Shown: positions 25,563-60,508 of the stretch, one piece after another
Numbering within the stretch: position 1 is the first letter of the stretch
How the letters are laid out: each line of letters begins with the position of its first letter
Source of the DNA: Candidatus Hodarchaeota archaeon
GTDB lineage: Archaea; Asgardarchaeota; Lokiarchaeia; Sigyniarchaeales; SOKP01
Reading direction: 5' to 3'
Length of the DNA: 64,000 nt
Assembly (NCBI GenBank): GCA_048886685.1
Contig: JBHLKM010000013.1
Coordinates: 81,755 to 145,754, forward strand
Program-made: the position numbers and the translations under genes
The notes under the pieces: generated by a model
The model's input: only the letters and a program-made list of their open reading frames with translations
Database searches by the model: none
What the model was told of the DNA's origin: nothing

Positions 25563-26360
25563 TTGAAAGTATACAAAACACACTTTTCAGAAAAAGAATC
25601 TGACATAACTATTTTTTCAGAATCAAAAACTGCAATATTAAAAGCAAAACAAATTTTTTACATACATCGGAGAAGTTTAGAGAAATATGTGTCTAAAAAT
25701 AATCTGTTTTTAACATCACTATCTCCTATTAAAGTGAATACGGAAATAAAAATTATTAATCTAATGGCTGATGCTGCTTATATTTGTGATGTGGGTCCTA
25801 TGGCTGCAGTTGCGGGTGCTCTAGCAGATCTTATGTTAGAGGCTATGAAAAATGAAAATGAGGCAGAAGAGTCCGATTTTATTGAAGCTCAAATTGCTTT
25901 AGTTGAAAATGGTGGTGAAATAGCGGTAGATACTATAGAACCTATGAATATTGCGTTATTTGCTGGAAATAATGAATTAAATTTGAATATTGGATTCATA
26001 ATTGAAAAAAAAGATTGTCCCCTTGGTATTGGAACAAGTTCTGCAACAATTGGGCATGCTATTAGTTTTGGACAAGCTGATACAGTTACTATTTTTGCTA
26101 CAAATGCAACTTTAGCTGATGCAGCGGCAACTAGAGTGGCAAATTCAGTAAAAGGAAAAGATGTTGAGAAATCAATAAAACTAGGATTAGATATTGCTGA
26201 TGATATTGAGGGTGTCATAGGTACTTTCATTAGCAGGGATGATAAGATAGGGCAAGCAGGCAAATTACCAAAATTGATGAAAATTGAAGGAGATAAAAGA
26301 CAAATTTTACGAGGAAAAGTAGATGATAAATTTCTTGGAGATTATGAGATTTTTAAATGA
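25563..26360 (+). CDS. UPF0280 (ApbE-like) protein
   Basis: VGPMAAVAGA, VENGGEIA, TSSATIGHAISFGQAD, ADAAAT. Confidence 0.9.
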   Translation: MKVYKTHFSEKESDITIFSESKTAILKAKQIFYIHRRSLEKYVSKNNLFLTSLSPIKVNTEIKIINLMADAAYICDVGPMAAVAGALADLMLEAMKNENEAEESDFIEAQIALVENGGEIAVDTIEPMNIALFAGNNELNLNIGFIIEKKDCPLGIGTSSATIGHAISFGQADTVTIFATNATLADAAATRVANSVKGKDVEKSIKLGLDIADDIEGVIGTFISRDDKIGQAGKLPKLMKIEGDKRQILRGKVDDKFLGDYEIFK

Positions 26361-28638: not shown

Positions 28639-28814
28639 TTCTCAAATATACATTAAGGTAAATTTAAATTAAATTTTATCATAAAAAATCTCATATCCTA
28701 TAAAAATATTCATAAAATTGAAATTCTGAGAAAAGCTATTATTTTTTTTCTTTTTAAATGCTTCTATGCTTCAAAATATAAAAATAGAGCAAAAAAATTT
28801 GGGTAAAGTTATTT

Positions 28815-30128
28815 TTATAAATACTCTTTTCTTTCTGGAAGACTTTTCCAATCCAATAATAGAACTAAGCCACCTATTAATGCTACGGTTATCCAAAGTA
28901 AAAAAGCAGCCCAAGAACCCGCAGCACCAATAAGAGCTCCTGAAGTAAATGTTGTAATTGCAGCTCCAATATATCCCCAACCATCGATAAATCCCGTAGC
29001 AGCAGATGCTGCTTTTCGCGTCCCAAATTCCATAGGTATTGTAGAAACTAGAAGTGCATGCGGCGCAAAATTCAAAATTCCAATTAAGATCAATACAGGA
29101 ATCCCAAAAACAATATCAAGTGGGGGAAGTAATGTATAAATCAACAATATTATAGATAATAATATAAAAAAAGCACATATTACAGGTATTCTTCTTTTTC
29201 CAGCAAATTTATCAGAAATCCACGCACCTACAAGAACACCAATTGTACCTCCAATGGGGTAGAATATAGATTTCCATACAACAAATTTATCAGCACCAGT
29301 TACTTCAGGACTGAGTAAATATGGAAGCCAATCTGTCAATCCATATCTAACCATATTCAAACAAAATAAACCAAAACAAGCAAAAAGAACGGTTTTTGTA
29401 AAGAACACTGTTTTAGCCGTGTACTTAAAACCTACAAATTCATCATCACGGCAATCACCCAATTCCATTTTCCCCTCAAATTCTTCTTCAATAGTTGGTA
29501 AGCCACATTCTTCTGGAGCATTTCGACAACGGATGAAAAAATGAATTGCCATGAATAACATAATTACTCCGGGAGTAATAAAAGAGAATCGCCAATCTAA
29601 ATTAAGTCTTTCAGTTATAAATATAGCAATTATCCACGATACTACACCCCCAAGTAAATATGACGTAGCAAGTCTACTTGACCACTTCCCTCTCTCTTCT
29701 GCTGGGTGCCAATTTGCAATCGTTTTTACAGAAGGAGCCCATCCCATTGATTGGAAATATCCATTCAAACCCCACAGTAAAAATGCAACCCAAATAAAAT
29801 CAAAAGCAACTCCCATAAATATATTGATGACGGAAGAAACTATCAATCCTATTGTAATAAAACGTCTTGCCCCTACTTTATCACCTAAAAATCCATTAAC
29901 AAATTGACCAAATGCGTAAGCAAGAAAAAAAGTTGAACCGATAAGGCCCATAACTGCTTCTTCAATTCCGAATTCAGTTATGATAAATGGTTTCGCTATT
30001 GAAATATTTGTACGTCCAATATAGTAGATCATATAGGTAATCCAAACCGTAAAAAATATACGCGTTCTCCATGATTTAAATGTTTTCTTTACCTCAATCT
30101 CACTACTAGAATTTAAGTTTTTACTCAT
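28815..30128 (-). CDS. MFS organophosphate:Pi antiporter (GlpT/UhpT/OPA family)
   Basis: YYIGRTN, NGYFQSMGW, W...ERG, P...GLP, ATGFIDGWGYIG. Confidence 0.88.
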   Translation of the reverse strand: MSKNLNSSSEIEVKKTFKSWRTRIFFTVWITYMIYYIGRTNISIAKPFIITEFGIEEAVMGLIGSTFFLAYAFGQFVNGFLGDKVGARRFITIGLIVSSVINIFMGVAFDFIWVAFLLWGLNGYFQSMGWAPSVKTIANWHPAEERGKWSSRLATSYLLGGVVSWIIAIFITERLNLDWRFSFITPGVIMLFMAIHFFIRCRNAPEECGLPTIEEEFEGKMELGDCRDDEFVGFKYTAKTVFFTKTVLFACFGLFCLNMVRYGLTDWLPYLLSPEVTGADKFVVWKSIFYPIGGTIGVLVGAWISDKFAGKRRIPVICAFFILLSIILLIYTLLPPLDIVFGIPVLILIGILNFAPHALLVSTIPMEFGTRKAASAATGFIDGWGYIGAAITTFTSGALIGAAGSWAAFLLWITVALIGGLVLLLDWKSLPERKEYL

Positions 30129-30158: not shown

Positions 30159-31082
30159 TTATATTTTACCATCTTTTATTAATTCTTTAGCATATTCATA
30201 ATCTTCTTCTGTATCCATCTCTACCCATTCTCTCTGAATATCAACTGAATGCATCGAATATCCTCGTAAAATAAGTTCTTCAATCATATCTGTTAAGTAT
30301 GCTTTTTGCATTGTCGTTGCATCGTGAAATCTTCCCTCAAATTTACAAGTTTTATTGTATTTCGCACGATTATAATTACGGATTAAGATTTCTGCACCTT
30401 TTTTTGTAAATTTACCAAGTCCTATGAATTCTCCATATGCAACATCTGGATTATAAAATTTTGATAGATTCTTTATTTTCCCGTGTTCTACAATAGCTAA
30501 TTCAGCTTCGTCTGTAGGATGTTTCATACGTCCTTCATATCTTTTCCTCCAGTCAGTATCTATGATAAAACTAAAATCATGAGGTGAATCCAATAGTTTT
30601 TTAACGACATTTTTACTGTACAAGATATCTGAATAGGTGAAAATAAATCCATCTTTCATTGCCTCCTCAGCATAAAACAAGGATTCGAGAATATTATTGT
30701 TATAATAATCATCATTATCATAGTATGTAATATTTGGTAAGTCAATTTTTTCTTTTTGATATCCTCGAATAATTACAAAATCATCAAGACCAAAATATTT
30801 AAAATTATCCAAAGTCCGTTCAAGAATGCTTTTTCCTTCAATTTCTAATAAACACTTTGGTTTATATTCAGTTAGAGGTCTTAATCTTGTACTTGGGCCA
30901 GCAGCTATAATAATTACTTTCATCTCTTTTACATCTATATTTTCCTCATATCTTCTTACAACGCGCTCTAGAAGCGAAATGTGCTCATTGAATTTTTCAG
31001 ATGTTTTTTTATATCCGACTTTTTTAACACTCTCATAAATCTTCTTAATTTCTTCAGGATCTGTATATTTTCGTGTCGGCAT
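30159..31082 (-). CDS. LicC/PntC-like cytidylyltransferase with ~50-aa N-terminal HTH-like extension
   Basis: IIAAGPSTRLRPLT..KPKCLL, YSDILY, GEFIGL, WVEMDT..DY. Confidence 0.85.
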   Translation of the reverse strand: MPTRKYTDPEEIKKIYESVKKVGYKKTSEKFNEHISLLERVVRRYEENIDVKEMKVIIIAAGPSTRLRPLTEYKPKCLLEIEGKSILERTLDNFKYFGLDDFVIIRGYQKEKIDLPNITYYDNDDYYNNNILESLFYAEEAMKDGFIFTYSDILYSKNVVKKLLDSPHDFSFIIDTDWRKRYEGRMKHPTDEAELAIVEHGKIKNLSKFYNPDVAYGEFIGLGKFTKKGAEILIRNYNRAKYNKTCKFEGRFHDATTMQKAYLTDMIEELILRGYSMHSVDIQREWVEMDTEEDYEYAKELIKDGKI

Positions 31083-31362: not shown

Positions 31363-32865
31363 TTATTTGTAAAATTTTCTAATATGCTTATTAAAATATA
31401 GAGGGAAATACAAAATCCAGACCAGAATTTCCTTCCATCTTTGCAATAGAAGTTTTCTTCGCTTGATTAAAGATCTGATTACAAATTTCAAATAACCTGT
31501 GTCTTTAATTTGATCTGATACATTATTTAATTCTGTATCTAATATTATGAATTTTTTCGTGTATTTTTGATATTTCCTTCGTAATTTTTTTAAACCATAA
31601 CCAGTCATTCTATTATAGATTAAGATCGTAATGAGACTGTAATTTTTAATGGAATTGAAAGTATTAACCTCAGATAATTTTATTATTTTATTTTTATTTT
31701 TTAGATTTTCTTTAAGAAATATTACTAATTGAGGAGGGAACTGGTTTGGAATTAGGATGTTCTCAGACTCTAGAGAAGCTAAGAAACTTTGATTATATAT
31801 ATCATTTAAAGTATTTTTTAATATTTCATAAGCTTTTTTTTCAGTTTTTAAATAGAATCGAAACATTTCATTAAAGATTTTTGGATTTGAATTCCTTAAA
31901 TCTAATTTTTCCAATGGGTCTTCACTTAAATTATATAAAGTAAATTTTCCATTAATATTCAGAAGTTTCCACTCATCTTTGGTGATCATCGTTTTTTTAA
32001 TCGTTTGAAACATTAAATAACAGTCTCCTCTTATTTTTCTTTCTTTATTAACATCGTTGTCTTCCTCAATTAATTCCTTGAAAGAAATTGATTCTCTTTC
32101 ATGACTTGCTTCGATATTTAAATAATCAAGAACAGTCTCCATAACATCTATTAAATAAACTTGCCTTTCAATTGTTTTTGGTTGTGTTTTTGTTAAATTT
32201 GGTGGAATTTTAATAAATAAAATTGGGCGCATTGAAGATTGGTGAATATCGTCGAAATGCATTATTTTTCTCTTTTTATATAAATTGTGATCATAATAAC
32301 CATGATCAGAACTAAAAATGAAAATAGAATTATCCCATAAACTTTTATCTTTAAAATAATCTATAGTTTTGTTTAAATATAAATCAGTATGAGGGTCACT
32401 TGCCCTGAAAAATAAAAGAAAGAAATTGTTTTCGCTAGGTATAAAATGTTCCATTTTTTGGATGAAAATTTGATATACTTCCTTCGCATCTAACCAACGA
32501 TCTCCCGGATATAAATTTTTAGTGTAATATGGATTGAGAATATTTTTAGTAATAATTACTTGTTCTCTTCCAAATATAATTGATTGGATATTGTAATTAG
32601 CTTTTTTCAAAGGAGAAATATTATTATCTTTAAAACTCGGAAGTTTATCAATAGAACGATAATAATCAGGAATTAAGTAATAAGGGAATCGCCCAGTTAA
32701 AAATGAAAGAAGAGATAAGTTAGTTGATGGGAATTGAGAAATTGCATTTTCAAAATAAAAGCCTTCCTTATTTTTTTTTAAACTATTGAAGACAGGAAGT
32801 AACCCATGTAAATCAGTTCTTTCATAATTGCAGATTCCATCAATTATAATCCAAAAAATATTCAT
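31363..32865 (-). CDS. Divergent sulfatase-like (alkaline phosphatase superfamily) protein
   Basis: NIFWIIID, FPSTNLS..SFLTG, SSDHG, YNLSEDPLE; no CxPxR. Confidence 0.8.
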   Translation of the reverse strand: MNIFWIIIDGICNYERTDLHGLLPVFNSLKKNKEGFYFENAISQFPSTNLSLLSFLTGRFPYYLIPDYYRSIDKLPSFKDNNISPLKKANYNIQSIIFGREQVIITKNILNPYYTKNLYPGDRWLDAKEVYQIFIQKMEHFIPSENNFFLLFFRASDPHTDLYLNKTIDYFKDKSLWDNSIFIFSSDHGYYDHNLYKKRKIMHFDDIHQSSMRPILFIKIPPNLTKTQPKTIERQVYLIDVMETVLDYLNIEASHERESISFKELIEEDNDVNKERKIRGDCYLMFQTIKKTMITKDEWKLLNINGKFTLYNLSEDPLEKLDLRNSNPKIFNEMFRFYLKTEKKAYEILKNTLNDIYNQSFLASLESENILIPNQFPPQLVIFLKENLKNKNKIIKLSEVNTFNSIKNYSLITILIYNRMTGYGLKKLRRKYQKYTKKFIILDTELNNVSDQIKDTGYLKFVIRSLIKRRKLLLQRWKEILVWILYFPLYFNKHIRKFYK

Positions 32866-33031
32866 TTAGATACCTTCATAATATTTACTTTGCGAGAATT
32901 ACTATTTTCATAAAGAAAATTTTTGAAAGGATAAAAACTTAATTCCTTTTTATTGAATAAGAGATTTAAAATAGCGAGGGAATATAAATTTAAAATCAAC
33001 AATTAATTAATTGCTTCAATTTTCAAACTTT

Positions 33032-34144
33032 TTATTGCTTTAGACATTTATCATAAATATTTAATACCGTTTGAGCACTTTCTTCCCAGGAATATAATTT
33101 AACGCGTTCCAATCCTTTTTTTATTAAAATATTTCGCAATTTATCATTTTCTAGTACTTCTATCATTTTATTTGCTAATTCAACGTGATCAGAATTGTTT
33201 TTTAGAATTAATGCCGCATCTCCTACTATTTCTGGAATAGCAAAGGCGTTTGAAGTAATAACTGGACAACCACAAGCCATGGCCTCTAAATTGGGCATAC
33301 CAAAACCCTCAAAAAAAGAAGGAAAAACAAACACTTCTGCCAAATTTAGAAGTCCAATAACATCTCTTCTAGGGATAAAACCAGGAAAAACAATATCATT
33401 AAGTAAATTTTGTTGTCTGGTAAATTCAATTACTTCTTTATTTTTCCATCCACTTCCTCCTAAAACTAATTTTATTGAATTTTCTTGTTTTTTTAGTATT
33501 TGAAATGCTTTTAGTAGTGTCCAGGGATTTTTTCTCATACTATACCTACTTAAATGAAAAATGAAAGGAGAATCTATGCCATATTTTTTTTTTAATTCTA
33601 TTGGTTTTTTATTATAAACCTTGAAATCATCATCTACGGCATTATATGTGAGATAGATTTTATCTTTATTTACTCGATAATAGTTTATAATCTGTCTTTT
33701 AGTAATTCGAGAAACAGTAAAAATATATTCCAATTTTCGCGCATAATAAGGTCTAATTGTTTTGGCATGCAACCTTTTAATAATATTATATTTACGGGCA
33801 AAATAAAGTTCATATGCACCACCGCCATGAATTGTAGCAATCTTCTTCGGTTTTTTTAACCAGACAGGAGATAATATAGTTAAAGGAGAAAAATGTAATA
33901 TATCAAATTTTTCTTTTCTGAGTTTAGAGGATGCGATAATTGGATTTTTAGATATGATCAATTCATCAGTTCTTTTATAAATCTCCTTATTATTCTTAGA
34001 ATGGTGTATTAGAATTATGTTAAATCTATCATTAATATCCAAGATACGATTTACTAGTTGCCTTAAATGACTACCACTTCCACTAGTTCCTTGATCTATT
34101 GGTTTAGTAAAAATACCAACTTTGGGTTTGTTATTTAACGGCAT
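33032..34144 (-). CDS. GT4 glycosyltransferase
   Basis: RKNP, FPSFFEGFGMPNLEAMACG. Confidence 0.93.
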   Translation of the reverse strand: MPLNNKPKVGIFTKPIDQGTSGSGSHLRQLVNRILDINDRFNIILIHHSKNNKEIYKRTDELIISKNPIIASSKLRKEKFDILHFSPLTILSPVWLKKPKKIATIHGGGAYELYFARKYNIIKRLHAKTIRPYYARKLEYIFTVSRITKRQIINYYRVNKDKIYLTYNAVDDDFKVYNKKPIELKKKYGIDSPFIFHLSRYSMRKNPWTLLKAFQILKKQENSIKLVLGGSGWKNKEVIEFTRQQNLLNDIVFPGFIPRRDVIGLLNLAEVFVFPSFFEGFGMPNLEAMACGCPVITSNAFAIPEIVGDAALILKNNSDHVELANKMIEVLENDKLRNILIKKGLERVKLYSWEESAQTVLNIYDKCLKQ

Positions 34145-34177
34145 ATATCTTCATTAATCTTAATTTGCTCACCAATT

Positions 34178-34990
34178 CTACTTAGATTGTTGAATGGCAA
34201 TGATATCTTTTGTAATACTTCTTGATTTGATAATAATAAATGATGAAAAAACAAGAGACATAAACACAAAATAACAAATCATGATGATTTCTAATATCTG
34301 AAAATGACCAGAATATATAAATATTATATTCCCAACAAAAAACACTGTCGTAATGAGATGAGTATGACTAAAAGCATTGATAAGATTAAATATAATTTTT
34401 TTTATCAGCTTGAAAAAACTTTTTGAGGATTTTTCTTGGTTAACTTCTTCTTTTTGATTAATTATCTCTTTTACCTCTTTCTTGGTAGAAGCTATAATAG
34501 CTATCTTTCGAACCGTTCTTATTCCTAATATAAATATTGTCGTAAGAAAACCAAATATTATGTATAGAAATTCTGAATTAATTCTATAAATATTAAATCC
34601 AAAAGAAGAGAAAAAGCATCCCAAAAAGATAAAATGGCACACTTGATCATAATACATCCCTTTTATTGACACCTGTTTTTTATATCTTGCTACTTCTCCA
34701 TCGATTTCATCACTAAGAAAGTATAGATATAGTAAAATAAAACCAACGATAATGAATAAGCTATTACCAAATCCTATAAATAATAACCCAAGTAAGCCAA
34801 TCATACAACCAAAAATAGTGACGAAATTTGCAGTAATAGGCGTTTTTACTAAAATCCATGTTATATATTTGGATATAAATGTAAATGGATAATGCCACCA
34901 ATCATTTCTTCTTTTTCTATCTTCCAGTTTTTTACCTTGAGTTATCTCTTTGAATTCTTTAAAGCTTTGAGATGTCATTTTAATCTTCAA
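34178..34990 (-). CDS. CDP-alcohol phosphotransferase family protein
   Basis: TANFVT, DEIDGEVAR-x8-G-x3-D; TM helices. Confidence 0.9.
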   Translation of the reverse strand: MKIKMTSQSFKEFKEITQGKKLEDRKRRNDWWHYPFTFISKYITWILVKTPITANFVTIFGCMIGLLGLLFIGFGNSLFIIVGFILLYLYFLSDEIDGEVARYKKQVSIKGMYYDQVCHFIFLGCFFSSFGFNIYRINSEFLYIIFGFLTTIFILGIRTVRKIAIIASTKKEVKEIINQKEEVNQEKSSKSFFKLIKKIIFNLINAFSHTHLITTVFFVGNIIFIYSGHFQILEIIMICYFVFMSLVFSSFIIIKSRSITKDIIAIQQSK

Positions 34991-35287
34991 TTTTTCTTTA
35001 ATGATTCAATAAAATGATTTTAAACATAATAATTAACTTGAAATAAAATCAATTAGAAAACTTGAAATCCTACTGATTTTTGTTGTGAATCTAATCATTC
35101 AAATTTACCTTGAATCTTATTATTCTCCTATATAATGCAGAAAAATATTTTAAAAATATATTTTTTATTAATTTGGTTCTAATTACATTCTGAAACTTTA
35201 AGATTCATAAAATCATAAATTTAATTTTATAATAACAATTCCCAATTTAAAATAATTTAGATTCTGCAATTCTTTTTAATTCTTGCA

Positions 35288-36937
35288 ATGTCAATTGAAG
35301 ATAATAACCCATTACATGACAATAAAGAGTATAAAAATCTAGCTAGGAACACTTTTTATGCTTTTTTAATGAATTATGGATCACATTTTTTTACATTTAT
35401 AATCTCTTTTCTATTGGCACGATTGATTACAGATGCAAATTGGCAATTCCTAATATTAGCACTCTCTTATATGGCAATTATTACAATTATAACCTCATTA
35501 TTACCACCAGGTCAAGATTATTCCCTGAATTATTATATTCCAAGATATCTTGCTTTAAATCAAAAATCAAAAATCAAATCTTTGATTAAAAATGCATTTA
35601 TTATAAAAATTTTATTTCTAATTCCTGTTTTTATTGTAAGTATCATCATCTTTTCTGTTTTTGCTGATATTTTCGCAATTAATTTGGAGACAAAAGTAGT
35701 TCTTTTATATATTTTATCACCCGTCATTATCACCAATGGATTAACTAAAATATTGGATGCTATTAACCGAGGTTTTAGTAGGTTCAAATTGCTATTTATT
35801 TTATTGATGGTGAAAAATGCTTTTCACATCACACCTCTATTTCTTTACTACTTCTTCAGAATTGGCATTACTGTAGAAACTATTGCACTAATATATATGA
35901 TATCCTACTTGATTCCTTTTAGCTTAAACCTCTTATTCGTAATAAAAAAAGTTTATAATATTGAATCAATAAAAAGTGAAAAAGAATCATTGAAAGAAGA
36001 TTTCAACAAAGCTATTAGATATGGTAGCTTTATAGGATTTTCTAATATTATTGCAAGACTTTGGAAAGAAGCACAGTTTCAAGGAATTGGCTTTTTTGAA
36101 TCACCAGGTGCGGTAACAGGATACAACATTGCTTGGAATTATAAAGATATAGGAGCCTATTCGGTACATTCATTCAATCTTCCCTTATTAACTTCATTTA
36201 CCAGTCTAAATACTAAAGAGAATTACGATCAAATTAAGAAGATTTTTAAGGTTTCATATAAAATTACACTATTTTTATTATTAATAATAGCTGGTTTCTT
36301 ATTTTTTAGTGTAGATTTTCTAATAGATTTTATTTTTTTAGAAACCCGACTCGTTTATTCAATATTTCTCAAATTAATGTTAATAGCGACAGTATTTAGT
36401 GTTTTAGAGAAATTCGTTCAAAATCTCTTAAATTCAAGTAATAAAGTCAAAATACCTTTTCTGTTAAAAATATTTGATATGTCCTATTCTGTACCACTCT
36501 TCTTCATTGGACTGATATATTTTGGAGTTGAGGGAGCTATAATCTTTGGATTGATAATAGGATTTATTATATCTACAATAATCCAAATCATAGCAACTCG
36601 AAGATTTGGAAATGTTACGCTAAATATTAGGAAGATTTTTGTTCAATATTTATCATTCTTTATACCTTTGGGTATAACTATGGTTTTTGAATTCTTATTA
36701 TTCAAGAGAATGAGTTTTAGAATAATCGAAGGTCTAGGACTCTCACTCTTTAAAAACTTTGATTTTTTTTCAATAGGAACCTTTATTATACTCTTCGTTT
36801 CAATGAATTTAGTTTTAAAAACAGTTACCTCTGCCGATATCGAAATCTTTGAGTCCCTTTTAAATAAAGATCGATCTATTGATAGAATTCTAATTAAAGG
36901 TCTTAACCTTTTAAAAAAATTTACAAGAAAACAGTAA
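35288..36937 (+). CDS. Wzx/MOP-superfamily oligosaccharide flippase
   Basis: About 14 hydrophobic segments, LARNT...LARL start, GVEGA; glycan cluster context. Confidence 0.85.
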   Translation: MSIEDNNPLHDNKEYKNLARNTFYAFLMNYGSHFFTFIISFLLARLITDANWQFLILALSYMAIITIITSLLPPGQDYSLNYYIPRYLALNQKSKIKSLIKNAFIIKILFLIPVFIVSIIIFSVFADIFAINLETKVVLLYILSPVIITNGLTKILDAINRGFSRFKLLFILLMVKNAFHITPLFLYYFFRIGITVETIALIYMISYLIPFSLNLLFVIKKVYNIESIKSEKESLKEDFNKAIRYGSFIGFSNIIARLWKEAQFQGIGFFESPGAVTGYNIAWNYKDIGAYSVHSFNLPLLTSFTSLNTKENYDQIKKIFKVSYKITLFLLLIIAGFLFFSVDFLIDFIFLETRLVYSIFLKLMLIATVFSVLEKFVQNLLNSSNKVKIPFLLKIFDMSYSVPLFFIGLIYFGVEGAIIFGLIIGFIISTIIQIIATRRFGNVTLNIRKIFVQYLSFFIPLGITMVFEFLLFKRMSFRIIEGLGLSLFKNFDFFSIGTFIILFVSMNLVLKTVTSADIEIFESLLNKDRSIDRILIKGLNLLKKFTRKQ

Positions 36938-36964
36938 AGATAATAGTTGTGAACTTGATTACAC

Positions 36965-38146
36965 TCACCATTCCGGAGACTTGTTTCCTATTAATTTATA
37001 ATTAACTTCAAAAGTTTTAATATTATTCTCCCATAGATATTCTTCTTCAATTTTTCTTATTCCATTTTCTTTAAATTTTTTTCGTAGATTTTCGTCCTTT
37101 AGAAGTCTTTCTATAGACATTGCGTAGCATTTGTAATTTTCAGTTTCACATAGAAGCCCGTTTTTCAAATGAGTAATTAAATCTCTTGTACCCGTAATAT
37201 TACTTGTTACTATTGGAACTTGATAAATCATTGCTTCCATTAAAACACCAGCTAAGCCCTCACCTCTACTGGGAAGAAAAAATATATCTGCTATTTTATA
37301 AAAATTATGAACATCAAATCTATTCCCTACAAATATGACTTTGTCATCTAAACCAGAATTAGAGACAGATTTAATAGATTTTTCTCTCTCAGGTCCATCG
37401 CCGACCACTAAAAATTTGATATTTTTATCCTTTAATAACTGAGCAGTTTTTATGATTAAGTCAATGCCCTTCCTTTTATTAATATGTCCTACAAATAAAA
37501 CTATTTTATCACTATGTTTAATATTAAAAACTTCTCTGATATCTTTATCTGGAGTCTTTGTATCTAAATTGATCCCTGTAGGAGTAACTCTTACTTTATT
37601 CTCAGGGACTCTTATCTTTTCTGTATATTTGAGAAAGGAATTCCCATAAACTGTTATATAATTGGAAGCGAAAAATGCAAGTTTTCCTATGGTTCTATAA
37701 AAAATTTTAAATAACACATCTAAGACATTAGATATCTTAAAAGAATAGGAAGGGATTGTATCCATAGTAAGAATTAATTTTTTTTTTTTAAAAAATAAGA
37801 TTTTTAACATGCAGATTGAAAATGTATTTGGATAGAATGGGACCCAAACATGTATTATATCATTTTCCTTTAAAATCTTCCAACTTTTTTTAAAAAACTC
37901 CCAGTTAGTAGGAATAGGCCAAATATAACCAGAAGATTTCGTCCAGATAGGATATGTTAATAGGTTAATTCCTTTAAAATTGTCGTAATGTCTAGATTCT
38001 TTTCTCTTTATATCAGATTTTTTTCTTGGTGTTAAAATTGATACACTATAATCTTTTTCCTTTAAAATATTCATTATGGCAGAAATTGGTCTTCTGATGT
38101 GAATACCAGTATTCACAAAACATATTCTTTTGTATTGTTTGCTCAC
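36965..38146 (-). CDS. GT4 glycosyltransferase
   Basis: RKGID, VGDGP, PSRGEGLAGVLMEAM. Confidence 0.92.
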   Translation of the reverse strand: MSKQYKRICFVNTGIHIRRPISAIMNILKEKDYSVSILTPRKKSDIKRKESRHYDNFKGINLLTYPIWTKSSGYIWPIPTNWEFFKKSWKILKENDIIHVWVPFYPNTFSICMLKILFFKKKKLILTMDTIPSYSFKISNVLDVLFKIFYRTIGKLAFFASNYITVYGNSFLKYTEKIRVPENKVRVTPTGINLDTKTPDKDIREVFNIKHSDKIVLFVGHINKRKGIDLIIKTAQLLKDKNIKFLVVGDGPEREKSIKSVSNSGLDDKVIFVGNRFDVHNFYKIADIFFLPSRGEGLAGVLMEAMIYQVPIVTSNITGTRDLITHLKNGLLCETENYKCYAMSIERLLKDENLRKKFKENGIRKIEEEYLWENNIKTFEVNYKLIGNKSPEW

Positions 38147-38201
38147 AAATAAGGAAAAGAATTATGAAATATTTATATTATTCTTTTTAAATACATTATG
38201 T

Positions 38202-38993
38202 CTAACTATTTTTTATTGCTTTAATTAAGACAATTGGATTAATATCTTTTAAAAAGTTAATTGGGACAAATCTTGTTCTTATAATTTTAAAACGTAAGCC
38301 TATTTTGCGTTTGATAACTCTCCAATCAAAATTTTTATGTCCAGTCTCTCTCGCATATTCTTTATGTCCTATATATTCAGGTCTTATTTTTGGTCTTTTT
38401 AAAATGATAATTCGAATCAGTTCTTTTAAACCATATTTTGGTCTTTTGAAATTAACCATTTTCCCTATCATAGTCCTTATTAATAAAGAAATGCCAATTT
38501 CAACAGGAAGAGTGCAGATTAATATTCCGTTTCTTCTTAAAACGCGAAAAACTTCATTTATAAATTGATCTGGATTTTTTACATGCTCTAAAACTTCAAG
38601 ACAAAAAACTAAATCAAATTTATTATCTCTAAATGGTAATGCTTGACCATCTGAGCAAGCTAAATTAATCTTTTTTACATTTTTTAATTTATTATCAACT
38701 AAATTTTTTGATTCTCTAATAAATTCTTCATTTATATCATTGGCAACAATTGATCTTGCATATTGATTCAGAGTTGGTAAAAATGGTCCATCAGCACAAC
38801 CAATATCGAGAACTCGGGAATGTTCTGAAAATCTTATGTACTTTAACGAAAAAACAAAAGGAAGATAGGCATAATACCTAATTAGAAATGATTTGGAGTT
38901 ATACAAATAACAAGAGTATTGATCTTTTAAAGATTCATCATTGCTACCATCTGCGGGTACCCTAATAATTCTATATTTTTCCCGTAATTTCAT
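38202..38993 (-). CDS. Class I SAM-dependent methyltransferase
   Basis: VLDIGCADG, LPF...FDLV, EVLEHV. Confidence 0.9.
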   Translation of the reverse strand: MKLREKYRIIRVPADGSNDESLKDQYSCYLYNSKSFLIRYYAYLPFVFSLKYIRFSEHSRVLDIGCADGPFLPTLNQYARSIVANDINEEFIRESKNLVDNKLKNVKKINLACSDGQALPFRDNKFDLVFCLEVLEHVKNPDQFINEVFRVLRRNGILICTLPVEIGISLLIRTMIGKMVNFKRPKYGLKELIRIIILKRPKIRPEYIGHKEYARETGHKNFDWRVIKRKIGLRFKIIRTRFVPINFLKDINPIVLIKAIKNS

Positions 38994-39024
38994 ATTAAAT
39001 AATAACTGAGAAATTTTCTTTTTA

Positions 39025-39993
39025 TTAATTTTTATCTATCTCTATTTGCCATTCATAAGTTTTTCTTAAGCCCTCATCAATAGGAACTTGAGGGGAATAA
39101 TTTAAAACTTTGGTTGCTTTTGTAATATCTGCATGAGTTATGTCCATATCTCCTTTTTTCTTTTCTTTATATTTAACTCTCTTAGGCTTATTAGTAATAT
39201 CATAAATTTTGTTTACTAATTGATTAATACTTATTGGATTAGACAAACCCAAGTTAAATGCTTGACCTGAAGATTCTTTTATTTCAGACGCTAATATTAA
39301 TCCATTTATGATATCTGAAATATAAGTAAAGTCTCTCAATTGTTCTCCATCTCCGTATATTATTAATTCTTTATTCTGTAAAACTAAGTTAAAAAATTTT
39401 CCCACAACCATATCTGGTCTTCCTCTAGGTCCGTATACGGAGTAAAATCGAAGTGAGGTTATAGGTGTTGAATATTCTCTAAAATAATAATCTGCATAAA
39501 TCTCACCGCATAATTTTGATAAACCATAGGGACATATCGGATTTTTTGGATGATCTTCATCTACAGGGGTATAAGTTGGATTACCATAAACTGTAGAAGA
39601 TGATGCATAAACAAACTTTTTAATATCTTTATTTTTTATAAATTCTAAAAGATTTAATAAACCTCCTATATTATTCCTAGTAACTTGTTCAGCATTGTGC
39701 ATTGAATATTGTACTCCCGCATGAGCAGCAAGGTGGAAGACGATATCAATTTTATCTGAAATTTTGCTATAAATTGAGTTATCTAATAAATCACCTTTGA
39801 TTAAATTATACTCTTTTATATTTTCATAATCTTGCGTAACACTTGCTAAATTTTCTTCTTTTCCGGAATAATAACATTGATTAAAGTTATCAATCATCTC
39901 AATATAATTATTTTCTTGTATAAGGGTCTTAAAAAGATGCGTTCCAATAAATCCTGCTCCACCTGTAATTAATACATTTTTATTTTTTATCAT
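39025..39993 (-). CDS. NAD-dependent nucleotide-sugar epimerase (UDP-glucuronate 4-epimerase-like SDR)
   Basis: TGGAGFIG, HLAAHAGV, ASSSTVYG, YGLSK, VYGPRGRPDM. Confidence 0.9.
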   Translation of the reverse strand: MIKNKNVLITGGAGFIGTHLFKTLIQENNYIEMIDNFNQCYYSGKEENLASVTQDYENIKEYNLIKGDLLDNSIYSKISDKIDIVFHLAAHAGVQYSMHNAEQVTRNNIGGLLNLLEFIKNKDIKKFVYASSSTVYGNPTYTPVDEDHPKNPICPYGLSKLCGEIYADYYFREYSTPITSLRFYSVYGPRGRPDMVVGKFFNLVLQNKELIIYGDGEQLRDFTYISDIINGLILASEIKESSGQAFNLGLSNPISINQLVNKIYDITNKPKRVKYKEKKKGDMDITHADITKATKVLNYSPQVPIDEGLRKTYEWQIEIDKN

Positions 39994-40278
39994 TTTAACT
40001 TAAAGTTTAATATTTTAACTAAAAGATTATATAATATATTAAAATAAAATTTTAAGCAGTCTTTAAAGATTACCTAATAAATATTTGGCTTCATGGAAAT
40101 TTTAAGAGATTAAAAGTCTTTTGTTAACTATTAGGATTATAATTTTTTAAATTTTTGACTTAATAGCAATAAATTGTATTTGGGATTCGAACTTAAGAAA
40201 AATTTAAGTTTTTCAAATTTTTTTTAATAATAATTAAAAAGTTTTTGAAATTTTCAAATTTCTACAAATTCTAACACA

Positions 40279-41817
40279 ATGGAGAAGCCAAACATTATTT
40301 TAATAATTCTGGACACTTTTAGAGCAGATAAACTCTTAACTAACAATGAGGGTAGAGAATTAACCCCTTTTATTAAAACTTTAATGAAAAACTCATATTA
40401 TTTTGAAAATTGCATAGCTAATAGTCCATGGACAGTACCATCTCATATTAATATATTTACAGGACTGTATGCAACTCAAATGAAAAATTTGACTAAAAAG
40501 GTTGATACCCTTGGTAATAAAATTCCAGTTTTAACTGAAATTCTTAAAGATTGGGGATACCATACAATCTGTTTCACAGAAAATCCCCACATTAATAAAA
40601 AGGAGGGCTTTGCAAGAGGTTTTGAAATATTCATTGATAATTGGCAGAGTTTTTTAACACATCCCAAAAGATTCTGGGTGGATCGAATTGAAAAAATCCT
40701 TCCAATCTCAAAAATTGCATCTCGAGTTAGTACCTATATAAAGAAAAGAATAGAATCTTCGGACGTTATTCTATTTAAAATAAAAAAAATATTAAAAAAT
40801 TTAAAAAATCAATTATTTTGGAAAAAAATTCTTTCGAATAAAACAACAACTCTCGATCAATTAGAAAAAATAGGAGATATATTAAAAAAAAAAAATAATA
40901 CAAACCCATTTTATCTTTTTTTAAACATAATGGCGACGCATTATCCTTATGTTCCTACAAGACAAATTCTTAATAAGTTTAAAATTAGAAATAAGCAAAT
41001 AAAGACCATTAGGAATTTTCTTCTAACAAATCCTAAAGATCTTATAAATTTAACAGAATCTAAACCTTTATCGGAAAATAAAATTGATATAATTAAAAAA
41101 TTATACAATACAAGTGTATTTTACGCTGATCAAATAGTAAAAGAATTATTCTCAATTTTAGAAAATCTCGGTTTATTAGAAAACTCATATGTAGTTATTA
41201 CATCCGATCATGGAGAACATTTATGTGATGAATCAGATCATTTCTTATGTGATCATACAACATATTTCAGTCTATATGAATCTCTATTACGGGTACCCCT
41301 ACTTATATATCATAAAAATTATAAAAATAAAGTTATCAAGAATCAGGTACAATTGAAAGATCTTTATCATACTATTCTTTCATTTACAAATCATAACTCA
41401 ACTAATATTAAGTATTTTAAAAAAGAAAAATCACTATTATATCAAATTGAAACTAATTCTACTCCAAAATTTATTTTGGGGGAATATTTGAAACCAAAAA
41501 ATAAAGTATATAATTTAATTCATAGATATCGAAATATTATAAAAAAGAATCTAATCTCTAAGATAATAAATGATGTGTACTTTCTGAGAACTGAAAAATT
41601 AAAATTTATTGATTTTAATTCAATAAAGGAATTATATCAAATAGAAACTGATCCTCAAGAGCGATTTAATATTACAGGCAAAAATCTTAAAGTTCAAAAA
41701 GAGATAAAAAAGGCCTATGACTTAATTAAAGAAAAAATTAATAAGAAAGAAGATTTAATAGAATTGACTACAGAAAAAGAAAAAGATTTAATTAAGAGAA
41801 GTATTAAATTACTCTAA
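40279..41817 (+). CDS. Sulfatase-like (alkaline phosphatase superfamily) protein with Thr at the nucleophile position
   Basis: PNIILIILDTFRAD, SPWTVPSH...FTG, THYPY, TSDHGE, ELY....DPQE. Confidence 0.88.
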   Translation: MEKPNIILIILDTFRADKLLTNNEGRELTPFIKTLMKNSYYFENCIANSPWTVPSHINIFTGLYATQMKNLTKKVDTLGNKIPVLTEILKDWGYHTICFTENPHINKKEGFARGFEIFIDNWQSFLTHPKRFWVDRIEKILPISKIASRVSTYIKKRIESSDVILFKIKKILKNLKNQLFWKKILSNKTTTLDQLEKIGDILKKKNNTNPFYLFLNIMATHYPYVPTRQILNKFKIRNKQIKTIRNFLLTNPKDLINLTESKPLSENKIDIIKKLYNTSVFYADQIVKELFSILENLGLLENSYVVITSDHGEHLCDESDHFLCDHTTYFSLYESLLRVPLLIYHKNYKNKVIKNQVQLKDLYHTILSFTNHNSTNIKYFKKEKSLLYQIETNSTPKFILGEYLKPKNKVYNLIHRYRNIIKKNLISKIINDVYFLRTEKLKFIDFNSIKELYQIETDPQERFNITGKNLKVQKEIKKAYDLIKEKINKKEDLIELTTEKEKDLIKRSIKLL

Positions 41818-42209: not shown

Positions 42210-43046
42210 TTGAAGACGACGTTGCCATCTGAGAATACAGAACATCGCATAAAAAAAAACAATGTAAAATCAAGTAATATAAATTATCTTTTTCCTGGAT
42301 TAAAAGTTGGTATAATAATTCCTGCTTTTAATGAAGAAATGAATATTGGGGGAACATTAGCCCAAATTCCTAAAAATATATCTGAAGAATTGGAGATTAT
42401 TGTTGTAGACGATGGCTCATCTGATAATACAATTTCAATTGCTAATAAATACAACATCACTCTTTTAAAACACCCAAAAAATCGGGGTAATGGTGCTGCA
42501 ACTAAAACAGGATTAGAATTTTGTAAAGATAGGGATCATAAAATTGCTATCATACTGGATGCTGATGGTCAACACAATCCAAAATATATAAGTGATTTTA
42601 TAATACCTATTATGGAGGATAGTATAGAATTTGTAATAGGTAATCGATTTCAACATTATTATAATATGGATATCAACAGGAAATTATGTTCGAAATTGAT
42701 GACAGCCTTCTATTTCTTGTTCTTGCATAGAAAGATAGCAGATCCTACAAATGGTTATAGAGCTTTATCTTCCGAGTTAATACAAAATCTTGAATTTGAA
42801 TCTGAATATTCTCTTACCCAAGAAATGCTTTTTAAAATTGTGCCTACTTATAAATATAAGCAAATTCCGATAAAAGTAAATCCGAGAGGTCAAGGAGAAT
42901 CTTTTATAAAAATTAAAAATTATTTACTCAAAATAGTATTACTATTTATAAAGTTCTATATTTTTCCCAAAATTAAGAGATTAACTCACAAAATCTTAAG
43001 TGAAGAGTTCAGAAATAGAGTCAAAACATATTATTTGAAAACTTAA
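42210..43046 (+). CDS. GT2 glycosyltransferase (DPM1-like)
   Basis: IIPAFNEE, VDDGSSD, NRGNG, DADGQH, DPTNGYRA. Confidence 0.92.
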   Translation: MKTTLPSENTEHRIKKNNVKSSNINYLFPGLKVGIIIPAFNEEMNIGGTLAQIPKNISEELEIIVVDDGSSDNTISIANKYNITLLKHPKNRGNGAATKTGLEFCKDRDHKIAIILDADGQHNPKYISDFIIPIMEDSIEFVIGNRFQHYYNMDINRKLCSKLMTAFYFLFLHRKIADPTNGYRALSSELIQNLEFESEYSLTQEMLFKIVPTYKYKQIPIKVNPRGQGESFIKIKNYLLKIVLLFIKFYIFPKIKRLTHKILSEEFRNRVKTYYLKT

Positions 43047-58562: not shown

Positions 58563-59087
58563 TAATAATCCTCTTTTTTCTAATTCATCAAGAACGATTT
58601 CTTTACTCTGTTTAACTGTTTGCTTATCAGTTTCAACTATTATATCTGGATTGTCAGGTTCTTCAAAAGGATGATTAACTCCTGTAAAGTCTTTTATTTC
58701 GCCATCTCTGGCTTTAGCATACATACCTTTAGTATCTCGGTTTTCACACTCCTCAAGTGAGCATTTTACATAAACTAAGATATAATCCCTAATTTCTTTA
58801 CGTGAGTATTCTCTAATTTTGTTATATGGTGATACAAATGAAGCTAAAACAGCAACTCCGTTACGAGTCAGCAACTTCGCAACAAAAGTTACTCTTTCTA
58901 TATTCATATTTCGATCTTCTTCAGAAAAACCTAAATCTCTTGTTAAACTCTTTCTCACTATATCTCCATCAAGACGCTCTACTTTCATACCGCGGTTTTT
59001 CAAATCTTCTGCTATAGCATCCGCTAGAACTGTTTTCCCAGAACATGGGAGTCCTGTAAACCATAATGTAAACCCTTTGTGTTCCAT
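58557..59087 (-). CDS. cysC: Adenylyl-sulfate kinase
   Basis: WFTGLPCSGKT, LDGDIVR, DLGFSEEDR, RDTKGMY, FTGV..PFE.P. Confidence 0.96.
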   Translation of the reverse strand: MEHKGFTLWFTGLPCSGKTVLADAIAEDLKNRGMKVERLDGDIVRKSLTRDLGFSEEDRNMNIERVTFVAKLLTRNGVAVLASFVSPYNKIREYSRKEIRDYILVYVKCSLEECENRDTKGMYAKARDGEIKDFTGVNHPFEEPDNPDIIVETDKQTVKQSKEIVLDELEKRGLLL

Positions 59088-59101
59088 TTTATTAACTTTT
59101 T

Positions 59102-60487: not shown

Positions 60488-60508
60488 AAGTATATAACCT
60501 TAAATAAT

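What the first reader, a model, noticed from the sequence alone, without database searches (positions are those of the whole stretch)
31363..41817. Two 'sulfatases' without the formylglycine motif among biosynthetic glycosyltransferases, likely transferases
Seen: 40279..41817 has WTVPSH and 31363..32865 has PSTNLS where true sulfatases have C/SxPxR. Both keep the N-terminal Asp and SDHG metal ligands, and neither shows an obvious signal peptide. They are interspersed with GT4s, flippase and epimerase. Established: Thr-nucleophile members of this fold (LtaS, EptA, OpgB) are transferases. Inference: these add sulfate (or a phospho-group) to lipid-linked glycans and are the acceptor-side half of the proposed relay. 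40279 ends EKEKDLIKRSIKLL, like a tail helix lacking GY.
Basis: partly seen in the sequence, partly recalled or inferred. Interest (0 to 1): 0.72.

Follow-up and report, generated by a model that had tools for sequence, protein, structure and literature searches.

The report
Threonine-type sulfatase-fold glycan head-group transferases
Two genes of an Asgard archaeon look like sulfatases but have a plain threonine where real sulfatases need a modified cysteine. They sit in a variable surface-sugar gene island, so they most likely attach charged groups to the sugar coat rather than remove sulfate: a phosphonate or phosphate head group for one, and possibly sulfate for the other.

Summary
40279-41817 (P0001) has WTVPSH and 31363-32865 (P0002) has PSTNLS at the formylglycine position. 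Thr is invariant in 98 P0001 relatives, and the position is Thr or Ser in all 115 P0002 relatives. Both keep the Asp and SDHG metal ligands and have no signal peptide or TM segment.

The two are separate clades with different partners.

**P0002.** It is a fixed member of a syntenic Promethearchaeota locus: CDP-alcohol phosphotransferase (4th Asp replaced by His), GT4, P0002, LicC/PntC-like cytidylyltransferase, GlpT/UhpC-like transporter. In 14 of 19 informative related loci a PEP mutase::NTP-transferase, Fe-ADH, NTP-transferase and phosphonopyruvate decarboxylase cassette follows. That cassette is cleanly missing here. P0002 is therefore a candidate phosph(on)o head-group transferase, not a sulfate enzyme.

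**P0001.** It is an accessory island gene. Its bacterial relatives end in LxxLGY, the same tail as the small protein heading this window's PAPS operon. Sulfatase-fold sulfotransferases (Agl30, Agl31) have been shown genetically in Halobacterium. Sulfate transfer is plausible for P0001 but unproven.

Nothing here was tested biochemically, and the Agl30/31 sequences could not be fetched. This scan has flagged the same enzyme group before on other DNA, in about 46 genomes.

The parts
40279..41817 (+). P0001: soluble sulfatase-fold protein with Thr52 at the formylglycine position (W-T-V-P-S-H). Accessory gene of the glycan island, with a truncated family tail ...EKEKDLIKRSIKLL.
   Evidence: Pfam Sulfatase 1.3e-40 plus an N-terminal Phosphodiest match. 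T52 and H56 invariant in 98 homologues. No TM segment. Absent from the equivalent position in related loci. Homologues found in 17 of 133 genomes of the same family.
31363..32865 (-). P0002: compact soluble sulfatase-fold protein (core 1-350) with a P-S-T48 nucleophile motif, plus a C-terminal alpha/beta domain and a long basic helix (365-500). Candidate phosph(on)o head-group transferase.
   Evidence: AlphaFold2 model with pLDDT 94.7. VIA-align Z 28-32 to S1 sulfatases, 29 to YejM, 27-28 to LtaS/LtaP. Conserved synteny in 24 loci.
34178..34990 (-). CDP-alcohol phosphotransferase-family membrane protein with motif D-x2-D-G-x2-A-R-x8-G-x3-D-x3-H (fourth Asp replaced by His).
   Evidence: Pfam CDP-OH_P_transf 1.3e-06. 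Motif read. His present in 12 of 12 orthologues next to P0002.
33032..34144 (-). GT4 glycosyltransferase directly upstream of P0002.
   Evidence: Pfam Glycos_transf_1 1.8e-38. Conserved neighbour. P0002-like domains occur fused to GT4 in P0227, P0238 and P0254.
30159..31082 (-). LicC/PntC-like nucleotidyl (probably cytidylyl) transferase.
   Evidence: Pfam NTP_transf_3. Best solved relatives are LicC 1jyk (2.6e-14) and the PntC fusion 6pd1. Present next to P0002 in 16 related loci.
28815..30128 (-). MFS transporter of the organophosphate:phosphate antiporter type (PgtP/UhpC/GlpT-like).
   Evidence: NCBIfam TIGR00881 2e-69, with UhpC and GlpT models also matching. Paired with the nucleotidyltransferase in 14 related loci.
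28639..28814 (.). Junction where related genomes carry a ~4.85 kb phosphonate cassette (PEP mutase::NTP-transferase, Fe-ADH, NTP-transferase, phosphonopyruvate decarboxylase). Here the two flanks abut cleanly.
   Evidence: Alignment of this spacer with both flanks of the cassette in L041. No PEP mutase anywhere in this genome.
35288..36937 (+). Wzx/MATE-like flippase. The most constant neighbour of P0002 besides the GT4.
   Evidence: Pfam Polysacc_synt. 53-61% identical orthologues beside P0002 in 12 loci.
36965..39993 (-). GT4, SAM methyltransferase and NAD-dependent epimerase/dehydratase of the same island.
   Evidence: Pfam. P0001 homologues elsewhere lie next to a 296-aa SAM methyltransferase in about 10 of 16 loci.
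42210..43046 (+). GT2 glycosyltransferase at the island's edge.
   Evidence: Pfam Glycos_transf_2 2.2e-26.
26353..28638 (-). 761-aa polytopic membrane protein (about 14-16 TM segments) with no Pfam match. It is the conserved flank of the variable island.
   Evidence: Hydropathy. Orthologues flank both P0002-type and P0001-type islands. ESM Atlas lead to DUF2206/DUF6541-type proteins.
58557..61914 (-). PAPS operon 17 kb away: a 79-aa protein ending RLRDLGYID, ATP sulfurylase, an NPP-type alkaline-phosphatase-superfamily protein, and APS kinase. Possible supplier for P0001 only.
   Evidence: Pfam. Sequences. The same tail ends bacterial members of P0001's clade.

Best explanation
Both genes encode cytoplasmic alkaline-phosphatase-superfamily enzymes of the sulfatase fold. 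Each uses a plain Thr hydroxyl and a metal bound by Asp, Asp and His. Neither can make formylglycine. They most likely act as transferases that decorate a lipid-linked surface glycan on the cytoplasmic face, before a Wzx-like flippase exports it. They belong to two separate clades with different supply lines.

**P0002 (31363-32865)** is the fixed centre of an organophosph(on)ate head-group module.
- A GlpT/UhpC-like transporter and a LicC/PntC-like cytidylyltransferase provide a CMP-activated small phosph(on)ate. In most relatives an adjacent PEP mutase / Ppd / Fe-ADH / NTP-transferase cassette does this instead, and should make CMP-2-hydroxyethylphosphonate.
- Inferred step: P0002 takes the phosph(on)yl group onto Thr48. 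The donor is either the CMP conjugate directly, or a lipid made from it by the neighbouring His-variant CDP-alcohol phosphotransferase.
- Inferred step: P0002 then passes the group to a sugar built by the adjacent GT4.
- In this genome the phosphonate cassette has been cleanly lost, so the substrate would be imported or would be a phosphate ester.

**P0001 (40279-41817)** is an accessory, patchily distributed tailoring enzyme of the W-T-x-P-S-H clade. It probably adds an anionic group too. Sulfate, in the manner of Agl31, is the leading candidate, with a phospho group second.

Shown here: motifs, fold, conservation, synteny and fusions. Inferred: transfer rather than hydrolysis, the donors and the acceptors.
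For: Motif and fold:
- Thr at the formylglycine position, conserved across both families.
- P0002 model pLDDT 94.7. Z 28-32 to S1 sulfatases, 27-29 to LtaS, LtaP and YejM.
- No TM segment or signal peptide.
- On the tree the PST clade (support 97) and the P0001 clade (99) are separate from each other and from this genome's 15 CxPxR sulfatases. The genome also has an anaerobic sulfatase maturase.

P0002 context:
- 24 orthologous loci. 14 carry a PEP mutase (TIGR02320, 349 bits against a cut-off of 319.55) and a Ppd (TIGR03297, 422 against 312.5), with an Fe-ADH and NTP-transferases right after the module.
- In 80 loci of the wider family the commonest neighbours are a small NTP_transf_3 gene (48 loci), GT4 (46), SAM methyltransferases (30 and 21), Wzx (17), Wzy (15), CDP-OH phosphotransferase (13), Ppd (7) and PEP mutase (6).
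- P0002-like domains occur fused to GT4.
- dN/dS against L041 is 0.13-0.19 for the module's genes, and the ORFs are intact although the cassette is gone.

Literature:
- PF12804 nucleotidyltransferases fused to Ppm make CMP-phosphonates. The later tailoring steps are called enigmatic (PMC6697681).
- Phosphonate clusters with 'multiple sulfatases' have been noted (PMC8942020).

P0001:
- Homologues lie in glycan islands with Wzm/Wzt-like ABC transporters, rhamnose genes, GT2s and an adjacent methyltransferase.
- Tail shared with the PAPS-operon small protein.
- Agl30 and Agl31 as a genetic precedent (PMC11980604).
Against: - No enzyme of either clade has been assayed, so transfer versus hydrolysis rests on context alone.
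- Known Thr-nucleophile transferases of this fold (LtaS, EptA) are membrane-anchored, act outside the cell and use lipid donors. These proteins are soluble.
- This genome has no PEP mutase. Four genomes keep P0002 without one. The phosphonate link is therefore indirect for this window.
- L047 keeps P0002 without the cytidylyltransferase or the transporter.
- By sequence and structure both proteins are nearer to true sulfatases than to LtaS.
- For P0001 no donor-supplying gene is adjacent. Its tail lacks the Gly-aromatic end. Its His-rich site (H56, H221, H314, H326) would suit a second metal and phosphoryl chemistry as well as sulfate.
Confidence: 0.5

Rival explanations
1. One reading: both proteins are the acceptor-side half of a PAPS-fed sulfate relay and put sulfate on lipid-linked glycans.
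For: - Sulfatase-fold proteins Agl30 and Agl31 sulfate the DolP-linked N-glycan of Halobacterium, shown by deletion and heterologous expression (PMC11980604).
- A PAPS operon lies in the window.
- P0001's clade shares an LxxLGY-type tail with the operon's small protein.
- APS kinase is present in 15 of 17 genomes with a P0001 homologue, against 56 of 116 without.
- More distant Thr-type paralogues sit beside NPP-like genes near PAPS operons in G030, G112, G131 and G056.
Against: - P0002 orthologues have no PAPS gene nearby in 0 of 24 loci, and P0001 homologues in 0 of 16.
- P0002 is fixed to cytidylyltransferase and phosphonate genes and has no such tail.
- The Arg of CxPxR that binds sulfate is lost in both proteins.
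- The co-occurrence is not corrected for relatedness and is weak within genus g1 (9/11 against 25/41).
- Kinship to Agl30/31 was not tested.
Confidence: 0.12
2. They are hydrolases: phosphodiesterases or phosphonate-monoester hydrolases. They would trim, edit or recycle head groups or nucleotide conjugates (for example removing CMP, as FomD does), or release imported organophosph(on)ates for nutrition.
For: - Many Thr-nucleophile members of the superfamily (NPP, PhnA, PafA) are hydrolases.
- P0001's T-x-P-x-H motif matches the NPP profile over residues 7-65.
- P0002 lies beside an organophosphate transporter.
- Phosphonate monoester hydrolases score Z 28.5 against the P0002 model.
Against: - Constant placement among GT4, Wzx, Wzy and nucleotidyltransferase genes, and fusion to GT4, points to building rather than scavenging.
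- No catabolic phosphonate genes were seen in the loci.
Confidence: 0.22
3. They are non-catalytic or regulatory sulfatase-fold proteins, like YejM/PbgA/LapC, that sense or scaffold glycan or lipid assembly.
For: YejM/PbgA is a top structural match to the P0002 core (Z 29).
Against: The full metal site and the hydroxyl nucleophile are invariant across hundreds of diverged sequences, as expected of an active enzyme. There is no TM anchor such as YejM has.
Confidence: 0.05

Closest known systems
Agl31 (VNG1057C, soluble) and Agl30 (VNG1056C, membrane-associated), N-glycan sulfotransferases of Halobacterium salinarum (PMC11980604)
   Same: Alkaline-phosphatase-superfamily proteins that look like sulfatases. 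They are encoded in an archaeal glycosylation cluster. Agl31 is cytosolic. They act on a lipid-linked glycan and add rather than remove an anionic group.
   Different: Sequence kinship and the residue at the nucleophile position could not be checked here because the sequences could not be fetched. Their donor is unknown. P0002's fixed partners are cytidylyltransferase and phosphonate genes, not sulfate genes.
LtaS / LtaP, EptA / MCR-1 / EptC, OpgB, BcsG: phospho-alcohol transferases of the PF00884 branch
   Same: Same fold (LtaS and LtaP Z 27-28, EptC 21). Thr or Ser nucleophile with an Asp / Asp-His metal site. They move a phospho-alcohol head group onto a glycan or lipid through a covalent enzyme intermediate.
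   Different: Those enzymes have an N-terminal multi-TM domain, work outside the cytoplasm and take the group from membrane phospholipids. P0001 and P0002 are soluble with no TM segment, and P0002 travels with nucleotide-activation genes.
Type I (S1) formylglycine sulfatases and phosphonate monoester hydrolases
   Same: Closest by sequence (profile E down to 2e-34) and by structure (Z 28-32), including the C-terminal sulfatase subdomain.
   Different: No C/S-x-P-x-R motif. Thr replaces the formylglycine precursor, and Arg is replaced by His (P0001) or Leu (P0002). They form clades apart from this genome's 15 CxPxR sulfatases.
Phosphonyl tailoring (Pnt) and Lic pathways: PntC or LicC cytidylyltransferase followed by a LicD-type transferase; Fom1 (CMP-HEP)
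   Same: The same logic of importing or making a small phosph(on)ate, activating it with CMP and transferring it to a surface glycan. The relatives' cassette (Ppm::PF12804, Ppd, Fe-ADH) matches the known CMP-2-hydroxyethylphosphonate route (PMC6697681).
   Different: No LicD was recognised among the annotated neighbours. A sulfatase-fold enzyme and a His-variant CDP-alcohol phosphotransferase stand where the transferase is expected.
Nucleotide pyrophosphatase/phosphodiesterases (NPP, PF01663)
   Same: P0001's nucleophile motif T-V-P-S-H-x-x-I-F-T-G-L-Y resembles the NPP T-F-P-N-H...TGLY signature. The Pfam Phosphodiest match over residues 7-65 has E 4.7e-09.
   Different: Over the full length P0001 is a Sulfatase-family protein (E 1.3e-40). 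The NPP signature itself is quoted from memory, not tested here.

Membership tests
S1 formylglycine sulfatases | C/S-x-P-x-R motif whose Cys or Ser is converted to formylglycine | tested here: not met
   T52-V-P-S-H in P0001 and T48-N-L-S-L in P0002 align on the Cys...Arg of solved sulfatases. Thr is invariant in 98 relatives and Thr/Ser in 115.
S1 formylglycine sulfatases | Sulfatase alpha/beta fold with an N-terminal Asp and a D-H/N-G metal site | tested here: met
   Pfam PF00884. P0002 model Z 28-32 to S1 sulfatases over residues 1-350. D12/D9 and SDHG conserved.
LtaS/EptA-type phospho-alcohol transferases | Thr or Ser nucleophile in an alkaline-phosphatase-type metal site | tested here: met
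   Structural match to LtaS and LtaP Z 27-28, EptC 21, EptA 18.
LtaS/EptA-type phospho-alcohol transferases | N-terminal multi-TM domain with an extracytoplasmic catalytic domain | tested here: not met
   No hydrophobic 19-mer reaches 1.6. The maxima are 1.12 (P0001) and 0.92 (P0002), and there is no signal peptide.
LtaS/EptA-type phospho-alcohol transferases | Phospholipid head group as donor, with a covalent phospho-Thr intermediate | not testable with these tools
   Needs biochemistry. A dedicated CDP-alcohol phosphotransferase next to P0002 would be compatible with a lipid donor.
Agl30/Agl31 sulfatase-fold N-glycan sulfotransferases | Sequence kinship to VNG1056C or VNG1057C | not tested
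Only the paper's description was available.
Agl30/Agl31 sulfatase-fold N-glycan sulfotransferases | Genomic link to glycosylation genes and to a supply of sulfate | tested here: inconclusive
   Glycan link met for both proteins. PAPS genes within 10 kb in 0 of 24 loci (P0002) and 0 of 16 (P0001). In this window the PAPS operon is 17 kb from P0001. APS kinase is present in 15 of 17 genomes with a P0001 homologue.
Phosphonyl tailoring (Pnt) gene clusters | PEP mutase with EDKx5NS, Ppd and a PF12804 nucleotidyltransferase in the same cluster | tested here: not met
   Not met in this window or genome: no PEP mutase. Met in 14 of 19 informative orthologous loci of P0002. In MK-D1 the cassette lies 300 kb from the orthologue.
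NPP (PF01663) | Full-length match to the Phosphodiest profile | tested here: not met
   In P0001 only residues 7-65 match (36.7 bits), while the Sulfatase profile scores 140 bits. P0002 is below the cut-off.

The most novel reading that the evidence does not exclude
Soluble Thr/Ser-type sulfatase-fold enzymes form one large, unassayed class of 'anionic head-group transferases' that work through a covalent Thr intermediate on the cytoplasmic face. The PST clade (P0002) would be the long-sought enzyme that attaches CMP-activated phosphonates, or imported organophosphates, to glycans. The W-T-x-P-S-H clade (P0001) would transfer sulfate and would dock to the PAPS-making enzymes through its LxxLGY-type C-terminal tail. 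Asgard archaea would then swap these modules in a hypervariable surface-glycan island.
Probability: 0.25. Interest if true: 0.8.

Novelty: new variant of a known kind. Interest (0 to 1): 0.55.

Why it matters
**An open step in phosphonate biology.** How phosphonates are attached to cell-surface glycans is unresolved. PMC6697681 calls the steps after CMP activation enigmatic. The P0002 clade is a concrete, widely distributed candidate: 79 clusters at E below 1e-30 and 80 metagenomic loci. It is also present in the cultured Promethearchaeum syntrophicum MK-D1, which has the phosphonate cassette too.

**A possible mechanism for archaeal sulfation.** Sulfatase-fold sulfotransferases have only genetic support so far (Agl30 and Agl31), with no known donor or mechanism. 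A conserved Thr nucleophile and a shared tail give testable hypotheses.

**Annotation.** These genes are routinely labelled 'sulfatase' or 'sulfatase-like hydrolase/transferase'. That inflates the inferred sulfatase repertoires of Asgard and marine genomes.

**Asgard cell surface.** The locus shows that Lokiarchaeia vary their surface glycans by cassette exchange between fixed flanks, as bacteria do at O-antigen loci.

Tried and rejected
- **Single-sequence AlphaFold2 of P0001** gave a useless model (pLDDT 36) and used one of the two jobs, so P0001 has no model.
Contexts came from the search for related loci, the genome search and the fetch from genomes instead.
- **A3 was too diverse for the search for related loci**. 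A tighter alignment, A4, was used.
- **C-terminal domain of P0002 (345-500):** the ESM Atlas gave no usable hit. Whole-model fold searches were filled by the sulfatase core, so that domain stays unassigned.
- **Methylphosphonate synthase:** two 414-423 aa neighbours of P0002-like genes in marine loci had no PDB relative, so the idea was dropped.
- **The listing of cluster members** gave no names or taxa for the wider family.
- **Haloferax Agl7 (HVO_2046):** the papers held do not state its family and the supplement is not held.
- **Papers not held:** Metcalf 2012 (Science) and Yu 2014 (J Bacteriol). My recollection that the Nitrosopumilus methylphosphonate cluster contains sulfatase homologues is memory only.
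- **Genome-wide scan for LxxLGY-like tails in G000:** 16 hits against 14 expected from shuffling. The motif is not enriched as a bare pattern, and only the PAPS-operon protein is convincing.
- **Longer fused forms of P0001:** only two were found, a tandem form and an MprF-like TM fusion, with no PAPS-enzyme fusion.
- **'Degenerate, decaying sulfatases' rejected:** the motifs are invariant, dN/dS is 0.13-0.19, and the clades are old and separate.

Full report
**What is there.** The window comes from an Asgard archaeon. It has Ras/Arf-type GTPases, an E2/RWD protein and about 29% G+C. Close homologues are labelled Promethearchaeota or Lokiarchaeia. The two ORFs are real: 40279-41817 (+), 512 aa (P0001), and 31363-32865 (-), 500 aa (P0002). 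Both hit Pfam Sulfatase. P0001 matches over its whole length (1.3e-40) and has an extra N-terminal match to the NPP profile. P0002 matches only from residue 160 on (1.8e-10).

**The motif.**
- For P0001, alignment to a solved sulfatase puts T52 on the formylglycine Cys and H56 on the Arg of CxPxR.
- In 98 homologues of P0001, which include bacterial proteins at 24-29% identity, D12, R15, T52, H56, H221, D310, H311 and H326 never vary.
- For P0002, profile-profile comparison with the P0001 family (probability 99.5) and a profile alignment to sulfatase 6hr5 both put T48 on the nucleophile position.
- In 115 relatives of P0002 the position is T (82) or S (33). S47, D9, D18, D157, D187, H188, G189 and H203 are conserved.
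- Neither protein has a TM segment or signal peptide.
- An AlphaFold2 model of P0002 (pLDDT 94.7) has a core (1-350) that matches S1 sulfatases at Z 28-32, YejM at 29, LtaS and LtaP at 27-28, and EptC, NPP and EptA at 18-21. It also has an unassigned C-terminal alpha/beta domain and a long basic helix.
- The genome holds about 15 ordinary CxPxR sulfatases and an anaerobic sulfatase maturase elsewhere. On a tree the P0002 clade (support 97) and the P0001 clade (99) are separate from these and from each other.
It is a family property, not decay.

**P0002 and its module.**
- A scan of one genome per species found 24 orthologous loci, all Promethearchaeota, including the cultured P. syntrophicum MK-D1.
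- They share one arrangement: E2/RWD, GT2, GT4, epimerase, flippase (opposite strand), CDP-alcohol phosphotransferase, GT4, P0002, NTP-transferase, MFS transporter, [PEP mutase::NTP-transferase, Fe-ADH, NTP-transferase, TPP decarboxylase], epimerase, a 761-aa membrane protein, two small proteins and a GTPase.
- The bracketed cassette is present in 14 of 19 loci with enough flank.
- Its PEP mutase and phosphonopyruvate decarboxylase pass NCBI's equivalog cut-offs (349 against 319.55 bits, and 422 against 312.5). The PEP mutase has the EDKx5NS signature. The Fe-ADH is closest to the phosphonate-type model.
- This is the known route to 2-hydroxyethylphosphonate with CMP activation (PMC6697681).
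- The window's own nucleotidyltransferase is closest to LicC (1jyk) and to the PntC fusion 6pd1. The transporter belongs to the PgtP/UhpC/GlpT organophosphate antiporters.
- In this genome the cassette is missing. The transporter gene abuts the 761-aa gene, and the spacer aligns with both flanks of the cassette in the nearest relative. No PEP mutase exists anywhere in the assembly, which is estimated 100% complete. Three other genomes show the same state.
- The remaining genes are intact, with dN/dS 0.13-0.19 against the nearest relative.

**The wider P0002 family.**
- A profile search of 1.84 billion representatives gave 79 clusters below 1e-30.
- In 80 metagenomic loci of this wider family the commonest neighbours are a small PF12804-like nucleotidyltransferase (48 loci), GT4 (46), two SAM methyltransferases (30 and 21), UDP-glucose dehydrogenase (25), epimerase (22), Wzx (17), Wzy (15), an AsnB-like enzyme (15), CDP-alcohol phosphotransferase (13), Wzz (7), Ppd (7) and PEP mutase (6). 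PEP mutase or Ppd is often directly adjacent.
- Three representatives fuse the P0002-like domain to a GT4.
- No orthologous locus holds a PAPS gene (0 of 24). In the wider family 3 of 80 loci hold a homologue of the NPP-like gene that lies inside the window's PAPS operon.
- I read P0002 as the candidate enzyme that moves a CMP-activated phosph(on)o head group onto a glycan during cytoplasmic assembly. The transfer could be direct, or could go through a lipid made by the adjacent CDP-alcohol phosphotransferase. In that enzyme the fourth Asp is His in the window and in all 12 orthologues.
- The chemistry is inferred by analogy with LtaS and EptA. It is not shown.

**P0001.**
- It is not part of the conserved module. 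It is absent from the same position in related loci, which also show a local rearrangement. Close homologues occur in only 17 of 133 genomes of the same family.
- In those genomes it lies in a different version of the same chromosomal island, between the 761-aa membrane protein and E2/RWD-IleRS. Its neighbours there are Wzm/Wzt-like ABC transporter genes, rhamnose biosynthesis genes, GT2s and CmcI-like O-methyltransferases. In about 10 of 16 loci a 296-aa SAM methyltransferase is adjacent.
- No nucleotide-activation or PAPS gene is adjacent.

**The sulfate question for P0001.**
1. A 2025 paper shows by deletion and heterologous expression that the sulfatase-like, alkaline-phosphatase-superfamily proteins Agl30 (membrane) and Agl31 (soluble) sulfate the dolichol-phosphate-linked N-glycan of Halobacterium salinarum. 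Donor and mechanism are not addressed (PMC11980604).
2. The window's PAPS operon (58557-61914) begins with a 79-aa protein ending RLRDLGYID and holds an NPP-type enzyme between ATP sulfurylase and APS kinase. Eleven to fourteen of the bacterial members of P0001's clade end in the same L-[KR]-x-L-G-Y tail. The Asgard family has a diverged tail...TEKEKDxVKxIIxxIKIKGI, with no GY in 80 sequences.
3. APS kinase is present in 15 of 17 genomes with a P0001 homologue, against 56 of 116 without. Fisher's p is 0.003, but it is uncorrected for relatedness, and within genus g1 the split is only 9/11 against 25/41.

More distant Thr-type paralogues sit beside NPP-like genes 4-20 kb from PAPS operons in four other Asgard genomes.

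Against the sulfate idea: the sulfate-binding Arg is lost, the site is rich in His, and no PAPS gene is within 10 kb in any of the 16 homologue loci.

I could not obtain the Agl30/31 sequences, so kinship is untested.

**Verdict.**
Both proteins are very probably glycan-tailoring enzymes rather than sulfatases. However, they are not a pair.
- P0002 belongs to phosph(on)ate chemistry (about 0.55). P0001's group is unresolved: sulfate about 0.35, a phospho group about 0.3, hydrolase or other for the rest.
- Similar enzymes have been flagged many times in this scan on other DNA. Those notes gave me the Agl30/31 and tail leads, which I then checked against the paper and my own sequence sets.
- Nothing here is biochemical evidence.

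Noticed in passing
window 34178-34990 (-): The CDP-alcohol phosphotransferase next to P0002 has His in place of the fourth Asp of the family motif (DEIDGEVAR-x8-G-x3-D-x3-H). The same His is in all 12 orthologues beside P0002 and in 3 of 7 such genes in the wider loci.
   Followed up: partly
window 28639-28814: Clean absence of a ~4.85 kb phosphonate cassette that the nearest relatives (89-95% identical flanking proteins) carry between the MFS transporter and the 761-aa membrane protein. The spacer aligns with both cassette flanks. No PEP mutase is left anywhere in the genome.
   Followed up: yes
window 26353-28638 (-): A 761-aa protein with about 14-16 TM segments and no Pfam or NCBIfam match. 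It is the conserved flank of a hypervariable glycan island whose other flank is E2/RWD-IleRS. The ESM Atlas points to DUF2206/DUF6541-type membrane proteins, so it may be a GT-C-like transferase or a polymerase.
   Followed up: partly
window 59102-60487 (-): An NPP-type alkaline-phosphatase-superfamily protein (PF01663, 8e-45; probable Thr nucleophile in PPITIPAW) lies between ATP sulfurylase and APS kinase. This order is conserved in G112 and G131. In G030 the operon lacks it, and a distant NPP-like gene lies about 12 kb away.
   Followed up: partly
window 61675-61914 (-); L159, L161, L162: The 79-aa protein heading the PAPS operon ends RLRDLGYID and is 81-86% identical in three other genomes. 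APS kinases of G030 and G112 end ...MGYL(PD), while the window's ends ...KRGLLL.
   Followed up: partly
G000 contig C10 (outside the window), C1:170121-173014: The genome has about 15 cytoplasmic-looking CxPxR sulfatases, most of them in one cluster on contig C10. An anaerobic sulfatase maturase lies next to a sulfatase on C1. One paralogue (C10:10735-12108) has T-M-P-A-R, that is Thr with the Arg kept.
   Followed up: no
P0227, P0238, P0254 (representative proteins): Proteins of about 955 aa join a P0002-like sulfatase-fold domain to a C-terminal GT4 glycosyltransferase. This mirrors the GT4-P0002 gene pair of the window.
   Followed up: partly
L167 (G150 = P. syntrophicum MK-D1, C1:1152.5-1157 kb): The cultured Asgard archaeon carries PEP mutase (EDKx5NS), Ppd, Fe-ADH, an NTP-transferase and a methyltransferase in a row. 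This lies 300 kb from its P0002 orthologue, which sits beside the cytidylyltransferase and MFS transporter.
   Followed up: partly
window 40001-42000: The P0001 gene lies in the window's lowest G+C stretch (23.4%, against 27-31% around it). This fits a recently acquired accessory gene.
   Followed up: no
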